DNA of 64,000 nt from an uncultured Eubacteriales bacterium (GTDB taxonomy: Bacteria > Bacillota_I > Bacilli_A > RFN20 > UBA1709): NCBI GenBank assembly GCA_964367815.1, contig CAYIYR010000004.1, positions 3,236-67,235 of the forward strand, in the 5' to 3' direction. This document shows, piece after piece, positions 34,748-49,880 of the stretch. Within the stretch, counting starts at the first letter, position 1. Each line of letters opens with the position of its first letter. The position numbers and the translations under genes are program-made. The notes under the pieces are model-generated. The model saw only the letters and a program-made list of their open reading frames with translations, was not told the DNA's origin and searched no databases.

Positions 34748-35545
34748 TTATTTGAAAGGGAAATTCAAAGGGATTTGCGGTCCTAACATTCCCATCGACC
34801 CTGTGACAATTATTAGCAGAGCAACAAAAGCAATGAAAGAGCCTAACCCAATCAATTGCCATTTTCTTGGAAGGTCATGAATTACCACTGCTGAGAAAAA
34901 GAATGGACAATAACCTATGATGAAAATCAAATATGGAACATTCGACTGCCACCAAGATTTATCCCAAGTTAATACTCCTGCTTTATTCAATATGATCTCA
35001 ACAATGACCGCTAGAACTGAGCCAACCAAGGCGGGAATAATTCGTCCCAATATAGCTTTTCTCTTAGTCTTACGCTCTTCAATAGTCAAGTCTTTGTTTC
35101 TTTTGTTTGCTTTATAGAACAAATTATTTGGATCAGCCAGCCAATTCTTATTGCCATCAAAAAAATTAATGCCTTCGCTATCTGGACTAGTTTTTAGCAG
35201 TAAGCAGGCAAACATGCCTAAAATAAAAAACATAAAACAGATTTCAATATTATATCCTATCAATATTTGATAAGCCGAGTTACCTTGAGCGATAGTACCC
35301 CAAACTGGTGAACCAGTAGTTGCATAAACCATCGAATTCCAGGTTTCATTAAAAACATCCATTGCCCAAAAAGCAACAGCACCAAACAAAATATTAAAGA
35401 GTTTCTTTTTCACTAAGCAAGCGCCGATAAACGCAACAATTACAAATATTGGTACTATGTACCAATTTAGCTTAGATAAATCCTGTAAATTTTCTTCCAA
35501 CTGCTGAGCAGTCACCAAATAATTAGCCATATTCCTAACCTCCAT
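34748..35545 (-). CDS. Hypothetical polytopic membrane protein
   Basis: 265 aa, about 6 TM helices, no recognisable motifs. Confidence 0.45.
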   Translation of the reverse strand: MEVRNMANYLVTAQQLEENLQDLSKLNWYIVPIFVIVAFIGACLVKKKLFNILFGAVAFWAMDVFNETWNSMVYATTGSPVWGTIAQGNSAYQILIGYNIEICFMFFILGMFACLLLKTSPDSEGINFFDGNKNWLADPNNLFYKANKRNKDLTIEERKTKRKAILGRIIPALVGSVLAVIVEIILNKAGVLTWDKSWWQSNVPYLIFIIGYCPFFFSAVVIHDLPRKWQLIGLGSFIAFVALLIIVTGSMGMLGPQIPLNFPFK

Positions 35546-35778
35546 ATTATCTATAATTCATTATAAACTACCTTGATAAACTATACTAGAGCAAAAGAAA
35601 TATACCCATGTCCAATAATTGCATTATAGAACTCGCTATGGTAAAATTATTGTACACCAAATGAACATATGGTGAATCCGAGCCATTATGTCCTAAAAAT
35701 ATTGATAAATATTCACGGCTATTGGCCGGGGTATAATTGGAAACGGTTATGCCTTCCATTGTGAAAAGGAGAGAAAGA

Positions 35779-36756
35779 ATGAAGAAAAAGTTGTTCAAGT
35801 TTTTTGCTGCCTTTGTAGCAGCATGCAGCATCTGCACTATCGCAGTAGGCTGTAAAAATGATGGAATCGAACTGAAGATTCTAAAAGAAGAAGATGACAG
35901 CATGATCAACACCTACGCGATGATAGCAGTTGATCCAAATGCACCATTTATCTCATCGACTGATGGTTCTGCCCTAGCAGCTGGATCTGTATCTATCAAT
36001 ACAGCAGGAGCTGATGCATTCATCGAATGGATGAGTAGTAGCGCAGGTCGTAATTTGATTAAGGACTATGGAAAAGCCGATTACGATGAGTATTTATTCT
36101 ATTTATTAGACACCGCTGAAACTTATAGTGGAACTATCGCTGCGGCAACCTCTGCAACCAAGACAATTCGTTTATCGACAACAACGTCTGTCAATGATAG
36201 TGGGCTGCTTAGCGCAATTGTACCAACATTTGAAAAAGATTATGGCTATGAAGTCAAGATATCTTCCGCCGGAACAGGCAAAGCAATTGCGGCAGCCACT
36301 TATGGAAATGCCGATCTAATCCTAGTCCACTCAAAGTCACAAGAAGAAACATTTATTAATGCGCACTATGCAAGAAAAGTGGCCTCTTTTAAACAAGAAA
36401 GACTAGCATTCATGTATAACTATTTTGTTTTAGTCGGGCCGAAAAAAGACCCTGCCAAAGTAGCTGATGCTGCCAACGTTAAGGAAGCCTTTAAAAAGAT
36501 TTCTGATGGCAGCTACACCTTTATTTCACGTGGTGATAAGAGCGGTACACATACAAAAGAAATTTCCTTATGGGATTCAACGCTAAAGATTACAACTGAA
36601 GCTACTAGTGTCAAAAATTATCCTTGGTATGTTTCAGCAAATGCTGGTATGGGTGTCTGCTTAACTCAAGCGAATGAAAAAGGTGCTTATATCTTATCCG
36701 ATAAGGCAACATTCTTAACCTTTAAAGCCAACCGTGGAATTATGCTTCAAGCATAG
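35779..36756 (+). CDS. tupA: Tungstate/molybdate ABC transporter substrate-binding protein (TupA/WtpA-like)
   Basis: Lipoprotein signal (AACSICTIAVGCKNDG) and anion-binding PBP fold with SRGDKSGTHTKE motif. Context is Moco and tungsten-enzyme genes. Confidence 0.65.
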   Translation: MKKKLFKFFAAFVAACSICTIAVGCKNDGIELKILKEEDDSMINTYAMIAVDPNAPFISSTDGSALAAGSVSINTAGADAFIEWMSSSAGRNLIKDYGKADYDEYLFYLLDTAETYSGTIAAATSATKTIRLSTTTSVNDSGLLSAIVPTFEKDYGYEVKISSAGTGKAIAAATYGNADLILVHSKSQEETFINAHYARKVASFKQERLAFMYNYFVLVGPKKDPAKVADAANVKEAFKKISDGSYTFISRGDKSGTHTKEISLWDSTLKITTEATSVKNYPWYVSANAGMGVCLTQANEKGAYILSDKATFLTFKANRGIMLQA

Positions 36757-36776: not shown

Positions 36777-37472
36777 ATGAAAGATGCATTTAGACAAGCC
36801 TTTGAACTAATCTTTAGTGGTGACATTGAATTAATTAACATCGTTCGTACCACTTTAATCATGAGCGTATCAAGTTCCCTTATTTCCCTAATAATTGGTG
36901 TGCCTTTAGGAGTTTTGCTTGCTTATAATGATTTCAAGGGAAAAAAAGTTGTAACAATTATTGTTCGCACATTAACTGGTGTCCCACCGGTTGTCTGTGG
37001 ATTGTTTTGTTATATGCTTTTTTCTGGGGTTGGACCCCTTGGCTTTATGCATCTTCTTTTTTCTATTCCTGGTATGATAGTGGCTCAAGTTTTGTTAATC
37101 ACTCCAATAATCATTGCTACTACCGAAACATTTGTAGCAACCATTACTGTTCGGATTAAGGAGACAGCCATGGGTCTGGGCCTTAGTAAGGGCAAAGCCT
37201 TTCTATTAACCGTTAACGAAAGTAAATATCAAATTTTTTCTACTTATTTGTTAGGATTTTCTCGAGCTATTGCAGAAGTTGGAGCTGTTTCCATGGTCGG
37301 TGGAGGTATTGCATGGCATACTAATGTTATGACAACCGCTATCGCTCAATATACAGGAATGGGGAATTTTGATAAAGCATTTGCTTTGGGAATTATTCTC
37401 CTATTATTAGCTTTAATCTTCAACATAGTGATGTTTATCATCCAAGGACGGCTAAAATATGATAATAAATAA
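36777..37472 (+). CDS. tupB: Tungstate/molybdate ABC transporter permease (TupB-like)
   Basis: 231 aa, 5-6 TM binding-protein-dependent permease. Confidence 0.7.
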   Translation: MKDAFRQAFELIFSGDIELINIVRTTLIMSVSSSLISLIIGVPLGVLLAYNDFKGKKVVTIIVRTLTGVPPVVCGLFCYMLFSGVGPLGFMHLLFSIPGMIVAQVLLITPIIIATTETFVATITVRIKETAMGLGLSKGKAFLLTVNESKYQIFSTYLLGFSRAIAEVGAVSMVGGGIAWHTNVMTTAIAQYTGMGNFDKAFALGIILLLLALIFNIVMFIIQGRLKYDNK

Positions 37473-38124
37473 TTTAACTAAAACATTTAAAGGCAAACAA
37501 GTCTTAAATATTTCAAGCTTTACTTTTGAGCCCAATAGAATTTATGCGATTATTGGAGCTAATGGCAGCGGTAAATCTACTCTCGGGAAATGTTTGGCGG
37601 GAATAATTCCTGCTGATAGCCCAAGTTCTATTGAGAAAAGCAATCAAAAAATTGGCTATCTTCCCCAAGTAAATTACGCTTTTGCCATGTCGGCCTGGAA
37701 GAATATTATGTTAGGTTGTACTAATGAAATTCAAAAAGAAAAAGCCAAAAAATATATGGAAGAACTTGATTTCACTTCCTTAGCTAAGCAGTTTGCACCA
37801 AAACTATCTGGTGGCGAAATTGCTAAAATGGCATTGATTCGCTTGCTTATTCATGATAATGATTTCTTAGTTCTTGATGAACCAACGGCTTCCTTAGATG
37901 TTAAATCAACACTTACTGCTGAAAGATTAATTAAAAACCATCAAGAGGAAAGACAAAGCACTATTATTATAATTACTCATTCAATCAAGCAAGCGCTTCG
38001 ACTTGCCGATGAAGTTCTCTTTCTAAATGATGGACAGCTACTAGAATATGGAGCAGTTCAAGAGGTTATTAATCAGCCAAAAAATGATCTGCTTAAGGAA
38101 TTCATTAAATTATTAGCAATTTAA
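37459..38124 (+). CDS. tupC: Tungstate/molybdate ABC transporter ATP-binding protein (TupC-like, no TOBE domain)
   Basis: 221 aa with Walker A GANGSGKST, LSGGE, and LVLDEP. Confidence 0.7.
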   Translation: MIINNLTKTFKGKQVLNISSFTFEPNRIYAIIGANGSGKSTLGKCLAGIIPADSPSSIEKSNQKIGYLPQVNYAFAMSAWKNIMLGCTNEIQKEKAKKYMEELDFTSLAKQFAPKLSGGEIAKMALIRLLIHDNDFLVLDEPTASLDVKSTLTAERLIKNHQEERQSTIIIITHSIKQALRLADEVLFLNDGQLLEYGAVQEVINQPKNDLLKEFIKLLAI

Positions 38125-38139
38125 AAGTGAGGTATTTCC

Positions 38140-38595
38140 TCACTTTTTCATTATTTCAATACTATCTCCGGCTTTTATTGTTCCTTCGACAATGACTATC
38201 GCAAAAATGCCTTCTTTAGGCATAATGCAAGACCCAAATCGTTGGGCAATCTCGCATCCAAGATCGGCATGACATTTTTTCCCGATCTGCGATACCTCTA
38301 AAATAGTTGATCCAATTTTCAGTCTTGTGCCAACTGGTATCTCATAAAGAATTAACCCTTCGGTGGTAATATTCTCAGCAAACTTACCCTCACAAATACC
38401 CGTAACATTCTTTTTCATTTGCTTAAACTTATCTATGCTCTCAACTCCAAGAAGACTAATTTGTCTCAATCCTGGTCCCGCATGAGCATCATTAACAATG
38501 CCATAATCTTTTCGGCATTCGATTTCTCCAACTGGATGCTTGCAAACACCTTTAACTTCACTAACATTAACCGCAATTACTTTTCCTTTAGACAT
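38140..38595 (-). CDS. MOSC domain-containing protein
   Basis: About 151 aa from MSKGKVIAVNVS. MOSC beta-barrel pattern with conserved Cys near the C-terminus. The ORF-track N-terminal extension overlaps moaC and is rejected. Confidence 0.55.
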   Translation of the reverse strand: MSKGKVIAVNVSEVKGVCKHPVGEIECRKDYGIVNDAHAGPGLRQISLLGVESIDKFKQMKKNVTGICEGKFAENITTEGLILYEIPVGTRLKIGSTILEVSQIGKKCHADLGCEIAQRFGSCIMPKEGIFAIVIVEGTIKAGDSIEIMKK

Positions 38596-39055
38596 TATGA
38601 AATTCGCCACTCTTTCCTCCACTCTTGTAAACAAGTTTACAATTTGTGAAATATACATATTTGTCAATAGCTTTAACCATATCATAGATAGTTAAGGCTG
38701 CAACGTTACAAGCTGTTAATGCTTCCATTTCAACACCAGTACCATAGTTAGTCTTAACTGTTGCATAAATGTCAACACCATACTCCTTAATCTTATATTC
38801 AATATCAGCATTGCTAAGAGGAATATTGTGACACATCGGAATGATTTCATAAGTCCTTTTTGCAGCCATAATTCCGGCAATCTGCGATACTGCTAAAACA
38901 TCGCCCTTTGCAATTTTGTTGTTCTGAATACAAGCTAATGTTTCCGGTTGCATATGAACCTCAATCATCGCAGTTGCGACTCTTGGAGTTACTTTTTTTT
39001 CTGAGATATCAACCATTTTCGCATAGCCATGTTCATTAAAATGTGTTAAGTCCAT
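38588..39055 (-). CDS. moaC: Cyclic pyranopterin monophosphate synthase MoaC
   Basis: 155 aa (MDLTHFNEHGYAKMVDISEK...) with the typical MoaC N-terminus. Confidence 0.85.
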   Translation of the reverse strand: MDLTHFNEHGYAKMVDISEKKVTPRVATAMIEVHMQPETLACIQNNKIAKGDVLAVSQIAGIMAAKRTYEIIPMCHNIPLSNADIEYKIKEYGVDIYATVKTNYGTGVEMEALTACNVAALTIYDMVKAIDKYVYFTNCKLVYKSGGKSGEFHNV

Positions 39056-39058
39056 TTT

Positions 39059-39985
39059 CTATCCTCCTATTTTAACCATATCTATTTTCTGACGTTCACC
39101 AGCATCTAATTTATGACTGGCAGGCTTAGCATATATCGCTAAGCGAATTGCTTTCTCCAACTCATTCTCATTATTGAGATAATCTTTTAGATTATAAACG
39201 AGATTAGTGTGCAAGCAAGGAATAATCTCACCAAATGCAGTAATCCTTATTCGATTGCAATTCTGACAAAACTTATGAGAGATTGGTCGGATAAATCCAA
39301 CCTCAGTCCCCATATATTCATAATACTCTGCGGTATTGTCAGTATACAAGTAAGTCATTTTATGATTTCTAATTATTTCATCAGCGCTAATGTAATACTG
39401 TTTATAATATTCCTCAGTATCTTCAAAAGGCATTAATTCAATAAAGCGTAGTTTTGCATTGACACTCTTTGCAAATGTCACCAATTCATCTATCGAATTA
39501 TCATTGATTCCTCTTTGTAAAACAGTATTAAGTTTTAGCAAATACCCTAACTCAAAAGCATATTTAATTCCTGAGATAACTTCATTAACATCACCAAAGC
39601 TAATATAGCGATATTGCTTCGCATCTAGAGTGTCTAAACTTATGTTAAGTTTTCTTAATCCTGCCCCATAAAGCTCCTTCGCATACTTGTTTAACAATAA
39701 CCCATTAGTAGTCATCGCAACATTACCGTTGACCAATGGAGAAATCTGTTGAACTAAATCAACAATTCCTTTTCTCAATAAGGGTTCACCACCAGTGAGA
39801 CGAATTTTTGTAACTCCCAAGTTAACGCAGCACTTAGCGATTTTAGCAAACTCCTCGATTCTCAAAACATCATCGTGCTTAACTTTTACTTCTTCTTTTG
39901 TAACACAATAGCGACATTTAAGGTTGCATAGATCAGTTACAGATAATCGCAAGTAGTTTATTTCTCGTTGAAATTTATCTTTCAT
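39059..39985 (-). CDS. moaA: GTP 3',8-cyclase MoaA (radical SAM)
   Basis: 308 aa with CNLKCRYC radical-SAM cluster motif and C-terminal MoaA Cys motif. Confidence 0.9.
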   Translation of the reverse strand: MKDKFQREINYLRLSVTDLCNLKCRYCVTKEEVKVKHDDVLRIEEFAKIAKCCVNLGVTKIRLTGGEPLLRKGIVDLVQQISPLVNGNVAMTTNGLLLNKYAKELYGAGLRKLNISLDTLDAKQYRYISFGDVNEVISGIKYAFELGYLLKLNTVLQRGINDNSIDELVTFAKSVNAKLRFIELMPFEDTEEYYKQYYISADEIIRNHKMTYLYTDNTAEYYEYMGTEVGFIRPISHKFCQNCNRIRITAFGEIIPCLHTNLVYNLKDYLNNENELEKAIRLAIYAKPASHKLDAGERQKIDMVKIGG

Positions 39986-41859
39986 TCAATTATCCTTACC
40001 TCTCCTAAGTGCTCAATTGTATAATCTTTAAATTGTAGCAATGTTTCCTTAACTTCTTCACTTTTTAGTAGTTCAATAAATCTAACAATTCTATCATCTT
40101 TCAAATTGTCATAGGTGGTCAAGAAATCATATTCCTCATTTGCAAGAGGCACAAAGCCTAGATGCAAAGCGTTCGCAACCGAGCCAATGCCCAAGCCACA
40201 TTCAGCAACCTGATTTTCAATAGCAACACCTACTGCAAGATGAGTATTATACTCTTTTTCATAACCATTAATGGCAGACACAGGGATCTGCTCTTTTTTT
40301 AATAAGTAATCAAAAAGAACTCTGGTTCCAGATCCTCTCTGACGATTTGCGTAAGGAAGATGTCCATCAGCAATCTGCCTAATGGTTTTGATCGAAGTTG
40401 ACTTATTTTGCATAATTCCTTGAGTTCTGCCAACACCCTTAATTAAAACCATTTTTTGATTAGGAAAATATTTTTTAATATAGCTCACATTGTAGAGACC
40501 GGTTTCTTCATCAAGCAGATGAATTGGTGCAATATGACATTCGCCTTTTTGCAAAGCAATAATCCCGCCCATACTACCAACATGAGCGGAAGAAATCGGC
40601 ATTTTATCTCCGATGACATCAATCATCAGATCATGGCTACCAATAATTACTAAATTTTCTTTTATAGTTGTCAAAGGCTTACGAAGATTAATTTCTACTT
40701 CACTGCCTTCCTCTATTCCTTCACTCAAGCGGTCAATATAAACTAAGCCATCAGCTTTTACTAAAGACATAATTTGAGCAGCTCCTCTTTCTAAAGGCGT
40801 GGCTACTAACTTATTATTTACAAATCCTAGGCACATACGAACATATTCTGCATGCTTAAAAGAAGACACAATTGATCTTGTCAAAGTAGCTTTTACAGTC
40901 TGTAACTCATCAGCTGCCAGTCCTTGCATCTTAAGAATAATGGGTCTTAAAAAAAGTTCAAAAACAAGATATGCTGAAACAGGATAGCCAGGAATACCAA
41001 TGACCGGTTTACCCTGAATTATTCCAAGAATAGTTGGTTTGCCTGGCCTGATTGCAATACCATGTGCAAAAACAGTTCCTAATTTTTCTATTATTTTTAC
41101 CGTAAAATCTTTGGTCCCTGCCGATGATCCCGCATTAATTATCACTAAATCGTTCTGATCTAAAGCATCTAGAAGTGTCTTTTCTAGCAGTTCCATATTA
41201 TCATTAATTACAGGATAGCGATGCGGAATTCCACCCAATTCATCAGTTAAAGCAGCAAACATTTTTGAATTACTCTCCATTAGTTTGCCAACCCCCAGCT
41301 GATTGACATCGTCAATCATTTCTCCACCAGTGGGAATGATTCCAACTCTTGGTTTTTTATAAACATTGATGGATGTGTTAGCTGATGCATAAATAGCACC
41401 TATATCTACTGGACGTATTTTTCGCCTTGATGGGAGAATCATTTCTCCAGCCACAATGCTTTCACCTTTGACCCTAACATGCTGCCAAGGATAAGCTGGA
41501 CTGATGATTTGCACTCTATCATCGTTCAAGATAATAACATCTTCAATCATTATTACGGCATTGTATTCTCCGCTAATCGGATTACCAGTATTTACATAAA
41601 TAAAATCAACATTTTCAACTAATGTTAAAGGTTTCTGCTCGGTCGCCATTGTGGTTCGCTCAGACTTTACTGCAATACCATCCATTGCGGCAGCATTATA
41701 CATAGGATCACATAGCAGAGCATAAATGGCTTTCTTTGTTACTCGGCCTAAAGCACTAATGGTATCAATAGATTCCCCATTTAGTTCAACGTTGCCCAAT
41801 TCTTTAAGATACTCATCATAGATGCTAATATCATTGTTTTGAATATATGCCTTTCTCAC
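39982..41859 (-). CDS. moeA: Molybdopterin molybdo/tungsto-transferase MoeA fused to a C-terminal periplasmic-binding-protein-like domain
   Basis: 625 aa. MoeA core (about 400 aa, GGVSMG-like motifs) plus a roughly 200-aa PBP-like domain. Confidence 0.75.
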   Translation of the reverse strand: MRKAYIQNNDISIYDEYLKELGNVELNGESIDTISALGRVTKKAIYALLCDPMYNAAAMDGIAVKSERTTMATEQKPLTLVENVDFIYVNTGNPISGEYNAVIMIEDVIILNDDRVQIISPAYPWQHVRVKGESIVAGEMILPSRRKIRPVDIGAIYASANTSINVYKKPRVGIIPTGGEMIDDVNQLGVGKLMESNSKMFAALTDELGGIPHRYPVINDNMELLEKTLLDALDQNDLVIINAGSSAGTKDFTVKIIEKLGTVFAHGIAIRPGKPTILGIIQGKPVIGIPGYPVSAYLVFELFLRPIILKMQGLAADELQTVKATLTRSIVSSFKHAEYVRMCLGFVNNKLVATPLERGAAQIMSLVKADGLVYIDRLSEGIEEGSEVEINLRKPLTTIKENLVIIGSHDLMIDVIGDKMPISSAHVGSMGGIIALQKGECHIAPIHLLDEETGLYNVSYIKKYFPNQKMVLIKGVGRTQGIMQNKSTSIKTIRQIADGHLPYANRQRGSGTRVLFDYLLKKEQIPVSAINGYEKEYNTHLAVGVAIENQVAECGLGIGSVANALHLGFVPLANEEYDFLTTYDNLKDDRIVRFIELLKSEEVKETLLQFKDYTIEHLGEVRIIE

Positions 41860-43052
41860 AGCAATTTCACCTCCAATAGAGTATTTTTTTCAATGCCTTC
41901 CACGAAAGATGGAATAATAATGTATCCATCCGCTTGTGCTAGAATATTTATTAAGCCAGATTTATAGAACTTGGGAGTTGCAGTATAACCATTGTCATCC
42001 TTCTCAAGTTTAACTGGCATGACTGTTGCTCTTCCACTAGCACTTGGAAAATTTGTTTTAGCTCGAGCATAAATAACATTATTACTTTCACACCCATACA
42101 GACTTTCTAAACAGTCAATATAGATGAGTTGTAGAGCAACTAATGCAGCCATGGGATGCCCTGGCAAACCGACTATTAGTTTTTCATTACTTAGACCTAC
42201 CATTGTTGGCTTTCCAGGTTTCAATGCTAAACCATGAACAAGAATCTTGCCAATAGCTTCAATTGATTTTTGAGTGTAATCCCGACTGCCAACTGAACTA
42301 CCACCAGAAATAAAAACTATATCTGCTATTTCTAGGCCATGTTTAATAGTTGCAACTAATTTATCATAGTCATCGTCTATGATGGCTTTTCCGCAGAATT
42401 GACAATAATCTATTAGTTTTGTTTGTAACAAATAAGAGTTGACATCACGAATTTTTGTATCAATAACTTTTTGACTAATATCGATTATTTCATCTCCGGT
42501 TGAAATAACAAAAAATCGCGGTTTTTTATATACATTTACATATTCTATACCCGCACCAGCAAGAACACCAATACGAGCGCTATTTAGCTTTATGCCTTTC
42601 TTAAAAATGATTGAGTCTTTCCTAACATCTTCACCAATTCTTATAACATTCTCATAAGGTCGGATTGGCTGATAAACAAATACTTCTTTATCAATTTTAG
42701 TTGTGCTTTCAATCATTACTACTGCATCACAGCCGGAAGGTACCATTCCGCCAGTAGGAACGTAATAACAGTGCGCAGATTCCACTACTGCATCAGTCTT
42801 TTTACCCATCTCGATATCGCCATCATAGGCAAAGATGGCAGGCACGCTTTGACTAGCACCAAAGGTTTCATTTGAATTAAGTGCATATCCATCCATCGTT
42901 GATCGACTAAACTGAGGAATATTTTCCAAGCTTAAAACATCAGTCGCTAAAATACGATTGACGGCCTCTTCAATCTTTATTCTTTCTATTTCAAATTTTA
43001 GATGCCTTAAGACCAATTCTTGAGCATCTTTGACTTCCAATACTTTCAGCAT
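41856..43052 (-). CDS. moeA: Molybdopterin molybdenumtransferase MoeA
   Basis: 398 aa canonical MoeA, second paralog. Confidence 0.85.
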   Translation of the reverse strand: MLKVLEVKDAQELVLRHLKFEIERIKIEEAVNRILATDVLSLENIPQFSRSTMDGYALNSNETFGASQSVPAIFAYDGDIEMGKKTDAVVESAHCYYVPTGGMVPSGCDAVVMIESTTKIDKEVFVYQPIRPYENVIRIGEDVRKDSIIFKKGIKLNSARIGVLAGAGIEYVNVYKKPRFFVISTGDEIIDISQKVIDTKIRDVNSYLLQTKLIDYCQFCGKAIIDDDYDKLVATIKHGLEIADIVFISGGSSVGSRDYTQKSIEAIGKILVHGLALKPGKPTMVGLSNEKLIVGLPGHPMAALVALQLIYIDCLESLYGCESNNVIYARAKTNFPSASGRATVMPVKLEKDDNGYTATPKFYKSGLINILAQADGYIIIPSFVEGIEKNTLLEVKLL

Positions 43053-43544
43053 CTAACGTGCACACTCTTGAATCTGTTGTAATAAGGTTTGAATACCATG
43101 AATAAGAGGTTCAATAACTGACTCAAGGTTTTCTTTGCAGGCTTTTGGTGATCCGGGCAAATTAACAATAACGCTTCGATTTTTAATACCACAAACCCCG
43201 CGTGACAAAATAGCTCGATTAGTATATTTCAAGCTGTTGAAGCGCATAGCTTCCATAACTCCTGGCGCCTCTTTCTCAATAACGAAACGAGTGGCTTCAG
43301 GCGTAACATCACGTGGTGAAAAACCCGTTCCACCTGTCGTTAAAATCAATGAAATCTGTTTATCACAGCATTCTTGCAACTGAGCAATTATTTCATCTTT
43401 TTCATCAGGAATAACTTTGCAATAAACAACTTCAAAATTATATGGCTTCAATACTTCTTCTATGGCCGGCCTTGACAAGTCTTCTCGTAAACCTTGAGAA
43501 CATTTATCACTTAATGTGATAATTCCTACCGTTATTTTATTCAT
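43053..43544 (-). CDS. Molybdenum cofactor biosynthesis protein MogA/MoaB
   Basis: 163 aa MoCF_biosynth domain (GGTGFSPRD). Confidence 0.8.
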   Translation of the reverse strand: MNKITVGIITLSDKCSQGLREDLSRPAIEEVLKPYNFEVVYCKVIPDEKDEIIAQLQECCDKQISLILTTGGTGFSPRDVTPEATRFVIEKEAPGVMEAMRFNSLKYTNRAILSRGVCGIKNRSVIVNLPGSPKACKENLESVIEPLIHGIQTLLQQIQECAR

Positions 43545-43708: not shown

Positions 43709-45709
43709 ATGAAAGCATTTATTGGCAAAATACTAGTAGTTGATTTAACAACAAAAGAGATGAAAACCGAAGCAATTCCTGAAGAGATTTATTATAATTT
43801 TTTGGCAGGAAAAGGGCTAGGTGCTTGGTATTTATATAACAATATACCAGCCGGTGCTGATCCATTAGGACCAGATAATATCTTGGGTTTTACCGCCGGT
43901 GCATTAACTGGTACCGGTGCATTGCTCTGCGGACGCTGGACAGTAGTCGCTAAATCTCCACTGACTGGTGGTTGGGGCGATGCTAACTGTGGTGGCAACC
44001 TAGCACCAGCAATTAAACAATGTGGTTATGATGCCATTTTCTTCAAAGGGATTAGTGAAGCCCCTATTTACTTCTATTGTGATAATAAAGGGCCACAATT
44101 AAAGGATGCCTCTGAAGTTTGGGGAATGGACGCTACTGAAACTGAGATTAAACTTGTTAAGGACAATTGGGTAACCAAGAAGCCCCGTGTTGCTTGCATT
44201 GGTCAAGCAGGAGAGAAAATGTCTCGTATCGCTGGTATTTGTAACGATGCCGGTCGTATTGCCGCTCGTTCCGGATGTGGAGCCGTAATGGGCAGTAAAA
44301 AATTAAAAGCTATTGTTCTTGCTGGCTCAAAACCAATCCAAGTTGATAATTTTGAGGAAGTTAAGAACATTAGTAAGAAGCTGGGTACGAAGTTAAAGAA
44401 AGCCAATGCTCCCGCAATTTTAAAGGGCAATATGATTTGGATGGCTGGCTTAGCATTAGATAAAGCCAGCATGCAACTACCACTAGATGGCATCTTATTG
44501 GCGATGCTCTTTAAAAAATGGGGTACACCACTAAATACACCTATGGGCATCTATTCCGGTGATGCTCCCATTAAAAACTGGGGCGGCTCTGTTAAAGATT
44601 TCCCCGGCAAAGAGAATAAAGTATTCAATCCGGATTACATCATCAGCCGCGAGTTCAAGAAATATCATTGTTACTCCTGTGGCATGGGCTGTGGTGGCAT
44701 CTGTACATTAAAAGGTATCAAAGATTGCGAGTTTCCTGAAACTCACAAACCAGAATATGAAACAATCCAAGCCTTTGGCGGATTACTTCTTTGCAACAAT
44801 GTAGATAGTATTTTCTATATTAATGAACTTTTAAACCGCGCAGGAATGGATAGCATTTCTGCAGGTAATACTGTTGCCTTTGCTATTGAATGTTATGAAA
44901 ATGGCTTAATCACCAAGGAAGATACAAATGGTCTTGAACTTAACTGGTCAAATAGCGAGGCTGTTGTAAAACTAGTTAAAATGATGATTAATCGTGAAGG
45001 CATCGGTGATATTCTCGCTGATGGTTCACGTGTTGCTGCTAGAAAAATCGGAAAAGACAGCGAAAAATTTGCGATGAATATCGGCGGTAGCGAGCCCGGT
45101 ATGCACGATAGTCGCTACGATCCACAACTAGCTATTCACTTTGTCACTGAACCAGCACCAGGAAAACATACCATTGGCATGGAACTAGGTTATGGTACTA
45201 TGAACCTTGCCGATATATGCACTTGGGCTCCAGTCGTTAAACTAAGTCGCAAAAAGTTTGAATATGTCCCTTCCCTAGAGATGTCTATGCGAGCTGTTGC
45301 TACTTCCTGTTATTCGATGCTGACTGATGGAGCGGGTGGCTGTATGTATGCTCAGATGTTTGGAACTCAGCATTGGAATCCTTGCAATTATCTAAATGCA
45401 GCTGTCGGTTGGAATCGAAGCGGTGATGATTACATGGAAATCGGTAAGCGAATTCAAACAACAAGACAATTATTTAATATAAAGCATGGCATCGATCCTA
45501 CCAAAGTTAAGCTGCCTAAAAGAATGCAAGGTGTTCCTCCTTTAGATAAGGGACCATTAAAAGGAAAATCTTTGGAAACCGATCAAATGGTTGAATATTA
45601 TTTTGAAGGTTTCAAATGGGATAAGAAGACTGGAATTCCCACCAAGGAAGTTATTGAAGAATTAGGCTTAAATGTCTTTTTAGCAGAAGGAGGCGTCAAC
45701 AATGGCTAA
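43709..45709 (+). CDS. Tungsten-containing aldehyde:ferredoxin oxidoreductase (AOR family)
   Basis: 666 aa. AFOR N-terminal domain (ILVVDLTTKE...LGGKGLGAWYL) and C-terminal AOR domains with Cys ligands for a 4Fe-4S cluster. Confidence 0.85.
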   Translation: MKAFIGKILVVDLTTKEMKTEAIPEEIYYNFLAGKGLGAWYLYNNIPAGADPLGPDNILGFTAGALTGTGALLCGRWTVVAKSPLTGGWGDANCGGNLAPAIKQCGYDAIFFKGISEAPIYFYCDNKGPQLKDASEVWGMDATETEIKLVKDNWVTKKPRVACIGQAGEKMSRIAGICNDAGRIAARSGCGAVMGSKKLKAIVLAGSKPIQVDNFEEVKNISKKLGTKLKKANAPAILKGNMIWMAGLALDKASMQLPLDGILLAMLFKKWGTPLNTPMGIYSGDAPIKNWGGSVKDFPGKENKVFNPDYIISREFKKYHCYSCGMGCGGICTLKGIKDCEFPETHKPEYETIQAFGGLLLCNNVDSIFYINELLNRAGMDSISAGNTVAFAIECYENGLITKEDTNGLELNWSNSEAVVKLVKMMINREGIGDILADGSRVAARKIGKDSEKFAMNIGGSEPGMHDSRYDPQLAIHFVTEPAPGKHTIGMELGYGTMNLADICTWAPVVKLSRKKFEYVPSLEMSMRAVATSCYSMLTDGAGGCMYAQMFGTQHWNPCNYLNAAVGWNRSGDDYMEIGKRIQTTRQLFNIKHGIDPTKVKLPKRMQGVPPLDKGPLKGKSLETDQMVEYYFEGFKWDKKTGIPTKEVIEELGLNVFLAEGGVNNG

Positions 45710-45929
45710 GAAAAAACCGGTTTTTGACTATAGTATTTGTGTCGCTTGTGGAATTTGTGTTCAAGCTTGTCCATTTAGCACCTTAGAGTTGCAGAAAGAA
45801 GACGTTGACAAATATCATAAACCTTACCCAGAAATAGCGAGACCTAATTGCACTGGCTGTGGAATGTGTTCGCGCCAATGTCCACTAGATGCAATTAAGA
45901 TGGTTGAAGAAACAATTAATGAAGGTTAA
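45702..45929 (+). CDS. 2x[4Fe-4S] ferredoxin
   Basis: 75 aa with two CxxCxxCxxxCP motifs. Confidence 0.8.
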   Translation: MAKKKPVFDYSICVACGICVQACPFSTLELQKEDVDKYHKPYPEIARPNCTGCGMCSRQCPLDAIKMVEETINEG

Positions 45930-46155
45930 AGTATTTCCACCACTTTGGTGTAATTTTAAGAATCTAGACGACCGCGGTTGGTTGACACTTAATGATGGTG
46001 CTGTTTTAAGCGATGCATTAAAAAAAATTAGAATGGGTAGGATGATGGCCCAAATAATGCAAGTTCACCTTAATGGATTACGTGAAAAGAATCTTAAAAC
46101 GCCATTGCATGAAGGTGACACCATTAGTTTCTTTGCTATTATTGGAGGTGGCTAG
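45919..46155 (+). CDS. MoaD/ThiS-family sulfur-carrier protein (ends Gly-Gly)
   Basis: About 78 aa from MKVKVF, with C-terminal ...IIGGG. Overlaps the ferredoxin stop (translational coupling). Confidence 0.6.
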   Translation: MKVKVFPPLWCNFKNLDDRGWLTLNDGAVLSDALKKIRMGRMMAQIMQVHLNGLREKNLKTPLHEGDTISFFAIIGGG

Positions 46156-46156
46156 A

Positions 46157-46828
46157 ATGAATCAGCGTTATATTCGTAATATCGGTTCCCTAACTGCTAG
46201 TCAGCAAAAGAAGTTGTCAAAAAAGACAATCATGATTGTTGGTCTTGGTGGTTTAGGTGGTTATCTAGCCCAAGGTGCTGCCCGCTTAGGTATTGGAAAC
46301 CTAATTATCTGCGATAATGGTGTTTTTGATGTTACAAATCTGAACAGACAAGTTTTCAGCAATACAGAAAATATTGGTATTTCTAAAGTTGAAGTAACAA
46401 AAGAAGAATTGAATAAGATCAATCCCGATTGCCATGTTGTTAGTTACGATGCATCAATCACTGATATTGATATGGGTAAGATAATAATGGATTGTGATGT
46501 TGTAGTTGATGCTCTTGATGGAGTTGAAACAAGACTGATACTTGAAAAGGCTTGTAACGAGCAAAACAAGATTCTTATTCATGCTGCTGTTAATGGTTGG
46601 GTAGGTCAGATTACTACTATCTTCCCATTTGAAAATATGATTAGTAAGTTATACTGCAATAATGATTTACCAGATCATCCAAGTGTTTTGCCAATGACAG
46701 CCGCCATTGTAGCAAATTATCAGTTATCTGAAACAGTTAAAGTTTTATTATCCAAGCCTAAACTACATGGTAAGTTATTAATTATTGATCTGCAAAATTA
46801 TCGATTAAGTAAAGTAAAAACTATATAA
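46157..46828 (+). CDS. ThiF/MoeB/HesA-family E1-like adenylyltransferase
   Basis: Nucleotide-binding motif IVGLGGLGG and NLNRQ. Start at MNQRY after RBS GGAGGTGG; the ORF-track start at 46073 is rejected. Confidence 0.8.
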   Translation: MNQRYIRNIGSLTASQQKKLSKKTIMIVGLGGLGGYLAQGAARLGIGNLIICDNGVFDVTNLNRQVFSNTENIGISKVEVTKEELNKINPDCHVVSYDASITDIDMGKIIMDCDVVVDALDGVETRLILEKACNEQNKILIHAAVNGWVGQITTIFPFENMISKLYCNNDLPDHPSVLPMTAAIVANYQLSETVKVLLSKPKLHGKLLIIDLQNYRLSKVKTI

Positions 46829-46869
46829 AATAAGAAAACCGCCATCATAGCGGTTTTGTTTTTTTATAA

Positions 46870-48186
46870 CTACTTATTTTTTTGAATTGCCTTATATATC
46901 TTACGCATATCCTCACGATTCATTATCTTTGGCACAGGATATAGTGGATTTGCTTCACTTAATGCTCTTGTTATCATGGTATCAATATCTTCATCTTTGA
47001 TTCCTTCAATTTGTGTTGGAATCTTCATGTAAGCATTGTATTCACGGATAGCAGCGATAAATTTCTTAGCAAGTTCTTCATCAGTACTTCCAGTTATATT
47101 CACTTCTCTTGCAAGTTCTGCAAGTGGTTTATAAGCTGTCGATCCATAATAATCCAATACATATGGAAGTATTACCGCATTAGCTAAGCCGTGGGGAACT
47201 TGATAGAAACCACCCAAAGTATGTGCGATTGCATGGACATTGCCAACATAAGCTCTTGTAAAAGCAACTCCAGCATCATAGGCTGCAATCTGCATATTAT
47301 TTCTGGCAACCATGTTATTTGGTTCATCGTAAGCAACCTTAATGTTAGCGAAGATTAACTTGGTAGCATTAATCGCTTTGGCTCTTGTCTTTGCTGTGTT
47401 ACTGTGACCAATATAGGCTTCGACCGCATGAGTCAAAGCATCCATTCCAGTAGTTGAAGTAATATGAGGCGGCAATTTAACCGTTACGACAGGATCTAAT
47501 ACCGCATAGCGTGGTGTTAGATGAGGATCATTAACAGCATACTTTTCATGTGTTTTGCTATTAGTAACAACGGCGGCAATGGTGGTTTCGCTACCAGTAC
47601 CAGCAGTTGTAGGAATCGCAAATAGCGGTGGCAACTTATGGCCAACTTTTAAGACGCCCTTCATCTGAGGAATTGTCTTATTAGGATTCACTGCTCTTGC
47701 GCCAACCCCTTTTGCGCAGTCCATGGCTGAACCACCACCAAAGGCAACAATTACATTATGCTTATTTTCTTTATATTGTGCTAAAGCTTCCTCAATATTG
47801 TCAATAGTTGGATTTGGAACTGTCTTTGAGTAAATGGAGTATTTCAAACCCGCTTCATCCATTTTCTTGCTTAGCGTATCAATCATGCCTAATTTGTACA
47901 AAACACTGTCGGTAACGATTAAAACGCTATCCCAACCTTTGTCTTGGATAAACTTTGGTAAACTTTCAATGCAGTTTTCGCCTTTAATAATCTCTGGTTC
48001 ACTGAAATCCAAAAAATTAGTCGCAATCCGAAAAACGCCTTGATAAACTCGACAATAAAACTTGTACATTCCGCTCATATTATATAGCCCTCCTAGATAT
48101 GACATTTTCATTATACAATTAATAAAGGCATTTTTCCATAGCTTTACAACACTTAATTTCATTCTAATAATGTTGGCAGCAATCAT
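46870..48186 (-). CDS. Iron-containing alcohol dehydrogenase
   Basis: GGGSAMDCAKG motif and Fe-ADH His motifs. The true start is probably an internal Met, giving about 400 aa. Confidence 0.85.
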   Translation of the reverse strand: MIAANIIRMKLSVVKLWKNAFINCIMKMSYLGGLYNMSGMYKFYCRVYQGVFRIATNFLDFSEPEIIKGENCIESLPKFIQDKGWDSVLIVTDSVLYKLGMIDTLSKKMDEAGLKYSIYSKTVPNPTIDNIEEALAQYKENKHNVIVAFGGGSAMDCAKGVGARAVNPNKTIPQMKGVLKVGHKLPPLFAIPTTAGTGSETTIAAVVTNSKTHEKYAVNDPHLTPRYAVLDPVVTVKLPPHITSTTGMDALTHAVEAYIGHSNTAKTRAKAINATKLIFANIKVAYDEPNNMVARNNMQIAAYDAGVAFTRAYVGNVHAIAHTLGGFYQVPHGLANAVILPYVLDYYGSTAYKPLAELAREVNITGSTDEELAKKFIAAIREYNAYMKIPTQIEGIKDEDIDTMITRALSEANPLYPVPKIMNREDMRKIYKAIQKNK

Positions 48187-48260: not shown

Positions 48261-49880
48261 GTGTATAGTATGAAAACACTACTAATGGGCATCAACGCTA
48301 AATACATCCATCCCAATTTAGCAATTAGACTTCTCAAAGCAAATACCACCTACGATGTGGATATTATCGAATTCAATATCAAAGATTCTTGTCAAAAAAT
48401 CATTGATTATGTCTGTGATAATCACTACACCGTTTTAGGCTTGTCCTGCTATATCTGGAACATTGAGATTATCAAACAGATCCTTCTTCAACTAAAGGGC
48501 AAAGAAATAACGATAATTCTTGGTGGACCGGAAGTAAGTTATAATGCAAACTATTATCTAGAAAATGATCTGTGCGATTATGTCATAAAAAATGAAGGCG
48601 AAGAATCATTTCAACTATTATTAGATTATCTCAATGGTAAACATGACTTATATTCTATTCCTAATCTCTATTATAAAGGTTGTTTTACCTTTGATAAACT
48701 AGTGGATATTAAGTCAGCAAAGATGGCCTATAATCTGCTTGATGATGTTGAGAATCAAATTGTCTATATTGAGACATCGCGCGGTTGTCCCTTTCATTGT
48801 GGCTACTGTATGGCTAGTCTTGATAACAAATTGCGCTTTTTTGATATTGAGTTAATTATGCAAGAGATTATTAGGCTGCTAGACAAGGGCGCAAAAGTTT
48901 TTAAATTTCTTGATCGAACCTTTAATGCTAATAAACAAAACTTTCTCTCTCTAATTGATTTCATTATTAGCAATCACAAAGCAGAAAACTCTTTCCAATT
49001 TGAAATAACTGGTGATTTGTTGGATGAAGAGGTTATTGATTACATCAATAAGCGTGCTCCAAAAGACTTGTTCCGTTTTGAAATTGGCATTCAATCAACT
49101 AATCTACATGCAAATTTAGCAGTTGGCAGAATTCAAAACAATGAGCGCTTGTTTAGAAATATTCGCTTAATTCAAGAAGTTAATATTATTGATTTACACC
49201 TTGATTTAATCGCTGGTCTCCCCTATGAAGATTATCAATCATTCCAGAAAACTTTTAATGAAGTTTTAGCACTAAAGCCAAAAGAGCTTCAATTAGGATT
49301 CTTGAAGTTACTCTATGGAACCCAGTTACATGAACAAGCCTCATCTTACAACTATCATTGGCAAAAGAATGCACCTTATGAATTGATTGATAACCAATTT
49401 ATGAGTGCTAACGATATCAAAAACATTCATTATTGTGAGGCAAGTTTTGATAAGTATTACAATTATGGAATCTATTCGCGGACCATGGCTTATGTCTTAG
49501 ACAGTATTAATGATCCCTATCTTTTCTTCTATGATCTTGGCCGCTATATTGACGATAAGAAACTATTACTTCTTGAAGATTTCTTTGTCACTCTCGATGA
49601 CTTTCTGTCTCAGAGATTGCCAAACAATTATAATAATTTGCATAAATTGTTGATTATTGATTATCTGAATCACTTCACGATTAAGCCTCAAGCTTGGTGG
49701 AAAGAAAGAATCAGCCCAAAAGAAAAGAATAATCTTCTCCGCTTTTATTATGAAAAGGGATTGTTAGATTATCCTTTAGATACTTTATACAAATACAGTC
49801 TGCTTATTCCACTTCAAAATGAATATATTTTAGCAATCTACCAAGCCAATACTTTGCATCTGCAACTTTTAGCTTGCTAG
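48261..49880 (+). CDS. B12-binding domain-containing radical SAM protein (DUF4080 type)
   Basis: 539 aa. N-terminal B12-binding-like region and CPFHCGYC radical-SAM motif. Confidence 0.75.
   Translation: MYSMKTLLMGINAKYIHPNLAIRLLKANTTYDVDIIEFNIKDSCQKIIDYVCDNHYTVLGLSCYIWNIEIIKQILLQLKGKEITIILGGPEVSYNANYYLENDLCDYVIKNEGEESFQLLLDYLNGKHDLYSIPNLYYKGCFTFDKLVDIKSAKMAYNLLDDVENQIVYIETSRGCPFHCGYCMASLDNKLRFFDIELIMQEIIRLLDKGAKVFKFLDRTFNANKQNFLSLIDFIISNHKAENSFQFEITGDLLDEEVIDYINKRAPKDLFRFEIGIQSTNLHANLAVGRIQNNERLFRNIRLIQEVNIIDLHLDLIAGLPYEDYQSFQKTFNEVLALKPKELQLGFLKLLYGTQLHEQASSYNYHWQKNAPYELIDNQFMSANDIKNIHYCEASFDKYYNYGIYSRTMAYVLDSINDPYLFFYDLGRYIDDKKLLLLEDFFVTLDDFLSQRLPNNYNNLHKLLIIDYLNHFTIKPQAWWKERISPKEKNNLLRFYYEKGLLDYPLDTLYKYSLLIPLQNEYILAIYQANTLHLQLLAC

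What the first reader, a model, noticed from the sequence alone, without database searches (positions are those of the whole stretch)
43709..46828. Bacterial tungsten-type AOR cassette with dedicated MoaD-like and ThiF/MoeB-like genes but no MoaE
AOR (666 aa), then a 2x[4Fe-4S] ferredoxin, a Gly-Gly-terminated MoaD/ThiS-like protein and a ThiF/MoeB E1-like enzyme are translationally coupled. They are divergent from a Moco operon (mogA, moeA, moeA-PBP fusion, moaA, moaC, MOSC) and next to a TupABC-like transporter. No MoaE (MPT synthase large subunit) is present in the window. The MoaD/E1 pair may be a dedicated sulfur-transfer or maturation system for the tungsten cofactor of this AOR. The MoeA fused to a periplasmic-binding-like domain (39982-41859) is a candidate tungstate-selective insertase.
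Basis: partly seen in the sequence, partly recalled or inferred. Interest (0 to 1): 0.55.

Follow-up and report, generated by a model that had tools for sequence, protein, structure and literature searches.

The report
Tungsten aldehyde oxidoreductase cassette without MoaE
A small gut-type bacterium encodes a tungsten aldehyde oxidoreductase with its own ferredoxin, sulfur-carrier protein and activating enzyme beside a full cofactor-synthesis operon; this layout is already described, and the missing MoaE gene is a long-noted, unsolved gap across whole bacterial classes for which a small MOSC protein is the best candidate substitute.

Summary
AOR (43709-45709), a 2x[4Fe-4S] ferredoxin, a 78-aa Gly-Gly-ended MoaD-like protein and a 223-aa minimal ThiF/MoeB-type E1 form one tightly coupled operon. 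It lies divergent from mogA-moeA-moeA::PBP-moaA-moaC-MOSC and next to a riboswitch-controlled tupABC.

MoaE was not found in the window, in the 1.42-Mb genome (94.7% complete), or as a canonical form in 401 genomes of its phylum or 400 Clostridia.

The AOR-MoaD-MoeB-ferredoxin neighbourhood was described in 2006 as a tungsten-cofactor cluster. The MoaE gap has been noted for acetogens, Geobacter and Dehalobacter. So this is a new member of a known kind.

What I add:
- All 18 genomes with a canonical AOR have a MoeB-like E1, against 2-3 of 21 cofactor-making genomes without one.
- 30 of 32 AOR genes have a Gly-Gly carrier gene beside them.
- The small MOSC protein is present in 37 of 39 MoaC-bearing genomes of the phylum and is found fused to MoaC, MogA, ThiF, XdhC, MobB and FdhD. 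That makes it the leading, untested, stand-in for MoaE.

No thiazole synthase is found in this genome, so a thiamine role is unlikely. Earlier reports of this scan (e1-5212214, e1-5264996) reached the same reading on other DNA.

The parts
35664..35787 (+). Moco/Wco riboswitch aptamer upstream of tupA
   Evidence: Rfam RF01055, 52.8 bits against a gathering score of 36, E 2.3e-10, full model 1-135
35737..36756 (+). TupA-like tungstate-binding protein. This is the ORF as listed; the true start probably lies downstream of the riboswitch.
   Evidence: PBP_like_2 8.7e-30. NCBIfam TupA 5e-41, below the equivalog cut-off. 67% identical to the family relative in L010.
36777..37472 (+). TupB permease
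   Evidence: BPD_transp_1 4.4e-12. 76% identical to L010 TupB.
37459..38124 (+). TupC ATPase
   Evidence: ABC_tran 2.5e-22
38140..38595 (-). Small stand-alone MOSC protein (151 aa from the corrected start). It is the candidate replacement for MoaE, or a sulfur or cofactor carrier.
   Evidence: MOSC 5.9e-9. PRK14499 MOSC half 6.5e-53. AF2 pLDDT 88; best fold match YuaD 1oru (TM 0.81), then YiiM and mARC1. D36, H38 and G105-K106 are invariant and C108, H109, C114 and C123 nearly invariant. Its start overlaps the moaC stop by 8 nt.
38588..39055 (-). MoaC
   Evidence: PF01967 1.5e-52
39059..39985 (-). MoaA (radical SAM)
   Evidence: Radical_SAM 6.5e-28 and Mob_synth_C 2.9e-27
39982..41859 (-). MoeA fused to a PBP_like domain; candidate tungstate-handling insertase
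   Evidence: MoeA_N, MoCF_biosynth, MoeA_C and PBP_like 7.6e-62. NCBIfam PRK14498 680 bits against a cut-off of 534. Found only in clusters with TupABC and an AOR or AOR-like gene.
41856..43052 (-). MoeA (plain)
   Evidence: MoeA_N 7.3e-43, MoCF_biosynth, MoeA_C
43053..43544 (-). MogA/MoaB-type MPT adenylyltransferase
   Evidence: MoCF_biosynth 4.7e-32
43709..45709 (+). AOR-family tungstoenzyme, 666 aa, of a distinct roughly 660-aa clade
   Evidence: AFOR_N and AFOR_C. Best PDB match P. furiosus AOR 1aor, 291 bits. The CxxCxxxC motif, the EYE glutamate, the DSIS and DxxGxC motifs and the active-site His align. It forms a clade with G109 and G280 (53% and 52% identity).
45702..45929 (+). 2x[4Fe-4S] ferredoxin, 75 aa
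   Evidence: Fer4_7 2.5e-16. 49% identical to the ferredoxin after the G109 AOR.
45919..46155 (+). MoaD/ThiS-fold sulfur-carrier protein, 78 aa, C-terminal Gly-Gly
   Evidence: Sequence. AF2 beta-grasp with Foldseek matches to ThiS, MoaD and SAMP1. Relatives lie next to the same AOR clade in L114 and L115. It is the only ThiS-family match in the genome.
46157..46828 (+). Minimal ThiF/MoeB-type E1 adenylyltransferase, 223 aa, with no zinc CxxC motifs and no rhodanese domain
   Evidence: ThiF 1.7e-48. Equally similar to E. coli MoeB (79.8 bits) and ThiF (79.6 bits); the aligned region lacks the CxxC cysteines. The only other E1 in the genome is TcdA-like.
46835..46857 (.). Bidirectional terminator hairpin shared with the convergent Fe-ADH gene
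   Evidence: Hairpin followed by a T-run on both strands
46870..48186 (-). Iron-containing alcohol dehydrogenase, the likely metabolic partner of AOR. The ORF is 438 aa and homologues are 398-407 aa, so the start is probably internal.
   Evidence: Fe-ADH 7.1e-49 and ADH_Fe_C. An Fe-ADH lies beside the AOR in L010, L012, L026 and L114.

Best explanation
This is a self-contained module for making and using one tungsten enzyme.

1. TupABC, behind a Moco/Wco riboswitch, imports tungstate.
2. MoaA and MoaC make cyclic pyranopterin monophosphate (cPMP).
3. The ThiF/MoeB-like E1 adenylates the C-terminal glycine of the MoaD-like carrier. A cysteine desulfurase or rhodanese then converts it to a thiocarboxylate. 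That sulfur goes into the dithiolene of the pterin destined for AOR.
4. There is no MoaE, so the acceptor platform cannot be the classical MPT synthase. The most likely platform is the small MOSC protein encoded directly after MoaC.
5. MogA adenylates the pterin, and MoeA with MoeA::PBP inserts tungsten.
6. The W-bis-pterin cofactor is loaded into AOR. AOR exchanges electrons with the co-encoded ferredoxin. It probably works with the neighbouring Fe-ADH on an acid/aldehyde/alcohol couple.

What is shown: gene identities, folds, operon structure, absence of MoaE and ThiG, and the co-occurrence patterns.
What is inferred: every chemical step, and above all the role of MOSC (about 0.4 on its own).
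For: - Domain and fold assignments.
- This is the only MoaD-like protein and the only MoeB-like E1 in the genome.
- AOR is the only Mo/W enzyme found among the three families searched.
- Two clear cysteine desulfurases (plus a weak third match) and three rhodanese-domain proteins are present.
- E1 tracks AOR: 18 of 18 against 2-3 of 21. A Gly-Gly carrier lies beside 30 of 32 AOR genes.
- The AOR, ferredoxin and MoaD are of a different lineage from those of the family relatives, and ThiF appears to be too. The Moco operon is 65-72% identical to theirs. So the cassette moves as a unit.
- MOSC is in 37 of 39 MoaC-bearing genomes of the phylum. MoaA lies within 5 kb of it in 66 of 79 cross-phylum loci.
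- MOSC fusions: MOSC-ThiF in a family relative, MOSC-MogA, MoaC-MOSC. Of 66 long forms, 27 are fused to MogA/MoaB, 8 to MoaC and 2 to ThiF.
- Canonical MoaE is in 0 of 401 genomes of the phylum, 0 of 400 Clostridia and 2 of 50 MOSC-bearing genomes, against 11 of 14 control genomes.
- Literature: PMC1779556, PMC11323500, PMC4751268, PMC2700814, PMC5039349.
Against: - No experiment on any of these proteins.
- In the same phylum, AOR-less genomes with formate-dehydrogenase or xanthine-dehydrogenase type enzymes make the cofactor with MOSC but apparently without any MoaD/E1. G041 and G070 have no ThiF-family gene at all. MoaD/E1 is therefore not needed for pterin sulfuration in general.
- MOSC is also fused to late-acting factors (XdhC in 4, MobB in 3, FdhD in 1). 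That fits a cofactor carrier or terminal sulfurase as well as it fits a MoaE substitute.
- The closest solved MOSC proteins (YiiM, mARC) are cofactor users, not makers.
- I could not assemble a control group of canonical-MoaE genomes to test that they lack this MOSC.
Confidence: 0.55

Rival explanations
1. The MoaD/E1 pair acts after pterin synthesis and only on AOR. MOSC alone makes the dithiolene, as in the AOR-less relatives. The AOR-linked MoaD would then do one of three things: give a terminal sulfur ligand to tungsten, escort or insert the cofactor, or sulfurate a precursor bound in apo-AOR itself, so that AOR acts as its own MoaE.
For: - AOR-less Moco genomes lack the E1 altogether.
- The carrier is strictly adjacent to AOR, and each of four AOR clades has its own carrier type.
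- Genomes with several AORs keep several carriers (G071: L024 and L122).
- AOR-MoaD fusions are reported (PMC1779556).
- Deleting the AOR-adjacent UblC affects AOR and FOR but not GOR (PMC11323500).
- Canonical AOR loci also carry a dedicated radical-SAM 'tungsten cofactor oxidoreductase maturase', TIGR04317.
Against: - The MOSC-ThiF fusion in a family relative, and ThiF genes sitting beside MogA in G071 and G109, tie the E1 to the core pathway.
- One AOR gene (L026, 4370-6265) has no adjacent carrier.
- Linked inheritance alone would also give matching clades.
Confidence: 0.25
2. The small MOSC protein is only a cofactor-dependent enzyme or a cofactor storage or carrier protein. An unidentified protein, or free sulfide in a sulfide-rich habitat, does MoaE's job.
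For: - The closest folds are YiiM and mARC, which use the cofactor.
- Peng et al. 2018 count this protein as a molybdoenzyme (PMC6147048).
- It is fused to XdhC, MobB and FdhD.
- Elemental sulfur bypasses the Ubl carriers in T. kodakarensis (PMC11323500).
Against: - MOSC is the only conserved uncharacterised gene in the cluster.
- It is fused to MoaC and MogA, which flank the missing step.
- It is kept in 0.8-1.4 Mb genomes whose only Mo/W enzyme found is AOR.
Confidence: 0.15
3. MoaE is present but was missed, because of an assembly gap or extreme divergence, or the pair serves thiamine or tRNA thiolation and not the pterin cofactor.
For: - The genome is 94.7% complete in 60 contigs.
- The E1 scores equally against MoeB and ThiF.
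- NCBIfam's best hit is the ThiF adenylyltransferase model, below its cut-off.
Against: - No MoaE in four family relatives, in closed genomes of the phylum, or as a canonical form in 400 Clostridia.
- The HMM of the divergent MoaE-like family finds nothing.
- No ThiG over the cut-off in this genome or four relatives.
- The pair sits inside the AOR operon.
Confidence: 0.05

Closest known systems
AOR-linked MoaD/MoeB/4Fe-4S-ferredoxin 'tungsten cofactor biosynthesis' neighbourhood (Iyer, Burroughs and Aravind 2006, PMC1779556)
   Same: MoaD lies strictly beside AOR, with MoeB and a 4Fe-4S ferredoxin. The distribution is sporadic and looks mobile. The proposed role is making pterin for the tungsten cofactor of AOR.
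   Different: Here the cassette sits directly against the organism's only Moco operon, in a 1.4-Mb genome that has no MoaE and no second MoaD. The AOR belongs to a roughly 660-aa clade, and there is no radical-SAM maturase.
Thermococcus kodakarensis tk1066 (AOR), tk1065 (UblC, MoaD family), tk1064 (radical SAM) (PMC11323500)
   Same: A MoaD-family carrier is encoded next to AOR. Its deletion gives enzyme-specific effects (AOR about 54%, FOR undetectable, GOR unchanged).
   Different: It is an archaeon with three Ubl carriers and an E1 encoded elsewhere. This window has one carrier, an adjacent E1, a ferredoxin and no radical-SAM gene.
E. coli MoeB-MoaD-MoaE MPT synthase system (PDB 1jw9, 1fm0)
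   Same: A beta-grasp carrier with a Gly-Gly end, and an E1 with a GxGxxG nucleotide site. The presumed chemistry is adenylation followed by thiocarboxylate formation.
   Different: No MoaE partner. The E1 lacks the zinc CxxC motifs. The carrier falls below the Pfam ThiS cut-off.
MoaE-less, MOSC-containing Moco clusters of anaerobes: Dehalobacter (PMC4751268), Geobacter metallireducens (PMC2700814), acetogens (PMC5039349)
   Same: MoaA, MoaC, MoeA, MogA and MOSC without MoaE. G. metallireducens likewise keeps MoaD and MoeB but has no MoaE. Tang et al. suggested that MOSC could replace MPT synthase.
   Different: Those are passing remarks in genome papers. Here the whole system is compressed into about 12 kb and serves a single enzyme.
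Pyrococcus furiosus AOR (PDB 1aor)
   Same: Full-length alignment at 291 bits. The [4Fe-4S] cysteines, the pterin-binding motifs and the Glu/His active-site residues are conserved.
   Different: This protein is about 60 aa longer, with insertions after domain 1 and near residue 500. It is only about 31-33% identical to the canonical bacterial AORs sampled here, and substrates are unknown.

Membership tests
AOR family of tungsten pterin enzymes | AFOR_N plus AFOR_C domain architecture | tested here: met
   2.9e-69 and 1.4e-86
AOR family of tungsten pterin enzymes | [4Fe-4S] ligands CxxCxxxC plus a distal Cys, pterin-binding Asp motifs, and the Glu313/His448 equivalents | tested here: met
   Alignment to 1aor: CYSCGMGCGG, PEYE, DSISAGN, DGAGGC, GKH
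AOR family of tungsten pterin enzymes | Contains tungsten and oxidises aldehydes with ferredoxin | not testable with these tools
   Only context: TupABC, the Moco/Wco riboswitch and a co-encoded ferredoxin
MoaD/ThiS sulfur-carrier proteins | Beta-grasp fold with a C-terminal Gly-Gly | tested here: met
   Ends IIGGG. AF2 pLDDT 87; Foldseek top hits ThiS 3cwi, MoaD 3rpf_C, SAMP1 3po0.
MoaD/ThiS sulfur-carrier proteins | Sequence match over the Pfam ThiS gathering score | tested here: not met
   19.1 bits against 22.5, C-terminal 27 residues only. No NCBIfam hit.
MoaD/ThiS sulfur-carrier proteins | Encoded with a cognate E1 | tested here: met
   The ThiF-like gene starts 1 nt after its stop codon
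Canonical MPT synthase (MoaD2-MoaE2) | A MoaE large subunit is present | tested here: not met
   No PF02391 match at E<=1 in the genome. None in 41 relatives. The divergent-MoaE HMM is negative.
MoeB/ThiF E1 adenylyltransferases | ThiF domain with a GxGxxG nucleotide loop | tested here: met
   PF00899 1.7e-48; VGLGGLGG aligns to the MoeB loop
MoeB/ThiF E1 adenylyltransferases | Two CxxC zinc motifs, as in E. coli MoeB and ThiF | tested here: not met
   The aligned segments carry no cysteine pairs
MoeB/ThiF E1 adenylyltransferases | Reaches an NCBIfam equivalog cut-off for MoeB or ThiF | tested here: not met
   ThiF model 126.8 bits against 275; MoeB models 112.9-123.3 bits against 266-377
ThiS/ThiF thiazole (thiamine) pathway | Thiazole synthase ThiG in the genome or thi genes nearby | tested here: not met
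   Only sub-threshold partial matches (20 bits) in this genome and the four relatives searched. No thi genes in the window.
AOR-linked tungsten-cofactor neighbourhood (Iyer 2006) | MoaD adjacent to AOR, with MoeB and a 4Fe-4S ferredoxin | tested here: met
   Gene order AOR-ferredoxin-MoaD-ThiF. The same rule holds in 30 of 32 AOR genes examined.
MOSC domain proteins | MOSC beta-barrel fold with the conserved cysteine | tested here: met
   PF03473 5.9e-9. Fold match YuaD TM 0.81, then YiiM and mARC1. C108 aligns to the YiiM cysteine.
MOSC as functional MPT synthase | Converts cPMP to MPT | not testable with these tools
   Only gene context, fusions and the lack of MoaE

The most novel reading that the evidence does not exclude
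In this lineage and in Clostridia, the dithiolene of molybdopterin is made by a non-homologous MPT synthase built on the small three-Cys/His MOSC protein. The AOR-adjacent MoaD/E1 pairs are then not general pathway parts. They are enzyme-specific partners, one carrier per AOR clade, that deliver sulfur or cofactor directly at the apo-enzyme.
Probability: 0.3. Interest if true: 0.8.

Novelty: new member of a known kind. Interest (0 to 1): 0.42.

Why it matters
Textbook molybdenum and tungsten cofactor synthesis requires MoaE. Yet I found no canonical MoaE in 400 sampled Clostridia or in 401 genomes of this wall-less/Erysipelotrichia-like phylum, many of which carry working-looking pterin enzymes. 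Genome papers have flagged this gap since 2008-2009 without solving it.

This locus is about the smallest natural test case. One enzyme, one carrier, one E1, one MOSC and the core pathway lie in about 12 kb of a 1.4-Mb genome. Showing what replaces MoaE would revise a universal cofactor pathway. It would also help heterologous production of tungsten AORs, which are wanted for acid-to-alcohol biocatalysis.

Tried and rejected
- A phylum-level MoaE search, meant as a MoaE-positive control, drew largely the same families as the class sample and gave 1 of 401.
- A Clostridia sample, also meant as a control, gave no canonical MoaE. All 22 matches are a weak 30-40-bit family of about 140 aa. So I could not build the complementary table of MoaE-positive genomes lacking MOSC.
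- That divergent MoaE-like family has no steady Moco context and no adjacent carrier. An HMM built from it finds nothing in this genome.
- The word-indexed homology search with the MoaD-like protein returned only itself.
- The thiamine reading was rejected: no ThiG over the cut-off.
- There is no riboswitch in the mogA-AOR intergenic region; the only one lies before tupA.
- The second ThiF-family gene of the genome is TcdA-like, not a second MoeB.
- The promoter-like site count is at chance level (46 found against 46.7 expected), so I name no promoter.


Full report
**Observation.** The four genes are real, with two corrected starts.
- AOR: 43709-45709, 666 aa, AFOR_N and AFOR_C.
- Ferredoxin: 45702-45929, 75 aa, two [4Fe-4S] motifs.
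- Gly-Gly-ended protein: the plausible start is 45919, giving 78 aa.
- ThiF-family E1: it starts at 46157 behind GGAGGTGG, giving 223 aa.

The junctions overlap by 8 nt and 11 nt, and the last pair is 1 nt apart. A two-way terminator hairpin at 46835-46857 closes the operon against a convergent Fe-ADH gene.

On the other strand lie mogA, moeA, moeA::PBP_like, moaA, moaC and a MOSC gene. The MOSC gene's likely start, 38595, overlaps the moaC stop. tupABC follows, preceded by a Moco/Wco riboswitch at 35664-35787 (52.8 bits).

**What the parts are.**
- The AOR aligns over its full length with P. furiosus AOR (291 bits). It keeps the cluster cysteines, the pterin motifs and the Glu/His pair.
- The small protein misses the Pfam ThiS cut-off. 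It folds with pLDDT 87 into a beta-grasp, and its best PDB matches are ThiS, MoaD and SAMP1.
- The E1 is equally close to E. coli MoeB and ThiF, and it lacks their zinc CxxC motifs.
- These are the only MoaD-like protein and the only MoeB-like E1 in the genome. The other ThiF-family gene is TcdA-like.
- No ThiG over the cut-off is found here or in four relatives.
- Cysteine desulfurases and rhodaneses are present.

**The missing MoaE.**
- The genome is 1.42 Mb and 94.7% complete, and it has no PF02391 match even at E<=1.
- None of 41 genomes of the order has one.
- Of 39 MoaC-bearing genomes of the class, only one has a match, and it is weak (33 bits).
- The phylum sample gave 1 of 401.
- A sample of 400 Clostridia gave 22 matches. 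All are weak (30-40 bits) and belong to a family of about 140 aa.
- That family has no steady Moco context, and this genome has no relative of it.
- In the named control genomes, MoaE was found in 11 of 14 under the same search settings, the same 11 that have MoaC.

The absence is therefore real and class-wide, not a local oddity.

The literature already notes the gap. [quoted passage not shown] G. metallireducens has MoaD and MoeB but no MoaE, and how its nitrate reductase can function with the incomplete synthase is stated there to be unknown (PMC2700814). Dehalobacter lacks MoaD and MoaE, and its MOSC proteins were suggested as substitutes (PMC4751268).

**The MOSC protein.**
- It occurs in 37 of 39 MoaC-bearing genomes of the class, usually within a few kb of moaC.
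- In the best 79 loci, MoaA lies within 5 kb of it in 66. MoaC is adjacent in 35 and fused to it in 8.
- Of 50 such genomes, only two have a canonical MoaE, at about 85 bits.
- Fusions seen:
  - MOSC-ThiF in a member of this very family (G005).
  - MOSC-MogA in both gene orders.
  - MoaC-MOSC.
  - Of 66 long forms among the top 150 representatives: 27 with MogA/MoaB, 8 with MoaC, 4 with XdhC, 3 with MobB, 2 with ThiF and 1 with FdhD.
- The model (pLDDT 88) matches YuaD, YiiM and mARC1.
- Three cysteines and a histidine are nearly invariant, and one of the cysteines aligns with the YiiM cysteine.

So MOSC is clearly a cofactor-pathway protein that handles pterin or sulfur. It is the only conserved candidate for the missing step. 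The fusions to late-acting factors, however, also fit a carrier or terminal-sulfurase role.

**The MoaD/E1 pair tracks AOR.**
- All 18 genomes of the class with a canonical AOR have a full-length MoeB-like E1, and in 16 of them it lies within about 3 kb of AOR.
- Of 21 MoaC-bearing genomes without a canonical AOR, only two or three have such an E1.
- Of the 17 of these with no AOR-family hit at all, 16 carry DMSO-reductase-family or xanthine-dehydrogenase-family enzymes. G041, G070 and G142 have no ThiF-family gene at all.
- A 65-95-aa Gly-Gly ORF lies beside 18 of 19 AOR genes in loci of the phylum and beside 12 of 13 in cross-phylum loci.
- Four AOR clades each have their own carrier type.
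- This window's AOR, ferredoxin and carrier are closest to those of G109 and G280 (53%, 49% and 35% identity). Its Moco operon is 65-72% identical to that of its family relatives, which carry a different AOR clade at the same place. The cassette was therefore swapped as a unit, as Iyer et al. proposed for a 'mobile gene cluster'.
- In T. kodakarensis, deleting the AOR-adjacent MoaD lowers AOR activity to about 54% and abolishes FOR activity. GOR is unaffected (PMC11323500).

**Reading.** The cassette is a member of the AOR-MoaD-MoeB-ferredoxin tungsten-cofactor neighbourhood described in 2006 (PMC1779556). I hold, at about 0.55, that the pair feeds thiocarboxylate sulfur into the pterin made for AOR, with MOSC as the acceptor platform in place of MoaE.

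The main rival, at 0.25, is that MOSC makes the pterin without the pair and that the pair acts on AOR itself.

The MoeA::PBP fusion is a known family (PRK14498). In these data it is confined to clusters with TupABC and an AOR or AOR-like gene, which fits a tungstate-handling role. A paralogue-level split between tungsten and molybdenum insertases has been shown experimentally elsewhere (PMC13197769).

An Fe-ADH lies beside the AOR in five loci, counting this window. This suggests an acid/aldehyde/alcohol couple.

**Novelty.** Nothing here is categorically new. Earlier reports of this scan on other DNA reached the same conclusions. The value of this locus is as a compact test case for an old open question.

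Noticed in passing
window 35664-35787 (+): A full-length Moco/Wco riboswitch (RF01055, 52.8 bits) precedes tupA. It overlaps the first listed start codon of the tupA ORF, so the true tupA start is probably further downstream. No riboswitch precedes the AOR operon or the Moco operon.
   Followed up: partly
L118:9837-10262 (-), L124:5048-5470 (-), L126:4907-5347 (+), L128:4752-5162 (+), L129:5269-5703 (+); 22 of 400 Clostridia: A conserved family of about 140 aa (motifs PSMDxWLKEAK, HNGVVR, GDDIMxVLIGGDIRPHV) matches Pfam MoaE only weakly (25-40 bits) and has no NCBIfam model. It is not linked to Moco genes or to a MoaD. It accounts for nearly all 'MoaE' matches in Clostridia, and its function is unknown.
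   Followed up: partly
L012:11330-12373 (-) (G005, same family as the window): One 347-aa protein joins an N-terminal MOSC domain to a C-terminal ThiF/MoeB E1. It is encoded between the AOR gene and mogA. This directly links the E1 and MOSC, by analogy with MoeB-rhodanese fusions.
   Followed up: partly
L024:5499-6491 (+), and the equivalent genes in L025-L028 and L117: Canonical roughly 600-aa AOR genes of the phylum are followed by a radical-SAM gene matching TIGR04317, 'tungsten cofactor oxidoreductase radical SAM maturase'. The window's AOR clade lacks it and has a ferredoxin in that position.
   Followed up: partly
window 46870-48186 (-); L010, L012, L026, L114: An iron-containing alcohol dehydrogenase lies next to the AOR in five loci of three AOR clades, counting this window. 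This points to a conserved AOR plus ADH acid/aldehyde/alcohol route.
   Followed up: partly
L021:15036-16262 (-), L022:14693-16093 (-): Shortened AOR-like proteins (408 and 466 aa) are encoded directly beside tupA in two genomes (G044, G087) that have no MoeB-like E1 and no adjacent Gly-Gly carrier.
   Followed up: no
window 34748-35545 (-): A 265-aa ORF between feoAB and the tup riboswitch has no Pfam or NCBIfam match.
   Followed up: no
window 48261-49880 (+): A B12-binding radical-SAM protein with DUF4080 lies just beyond the Fe-ADH gene. I found no evidence that it belongs to the cofactor system.
   Followed up: no
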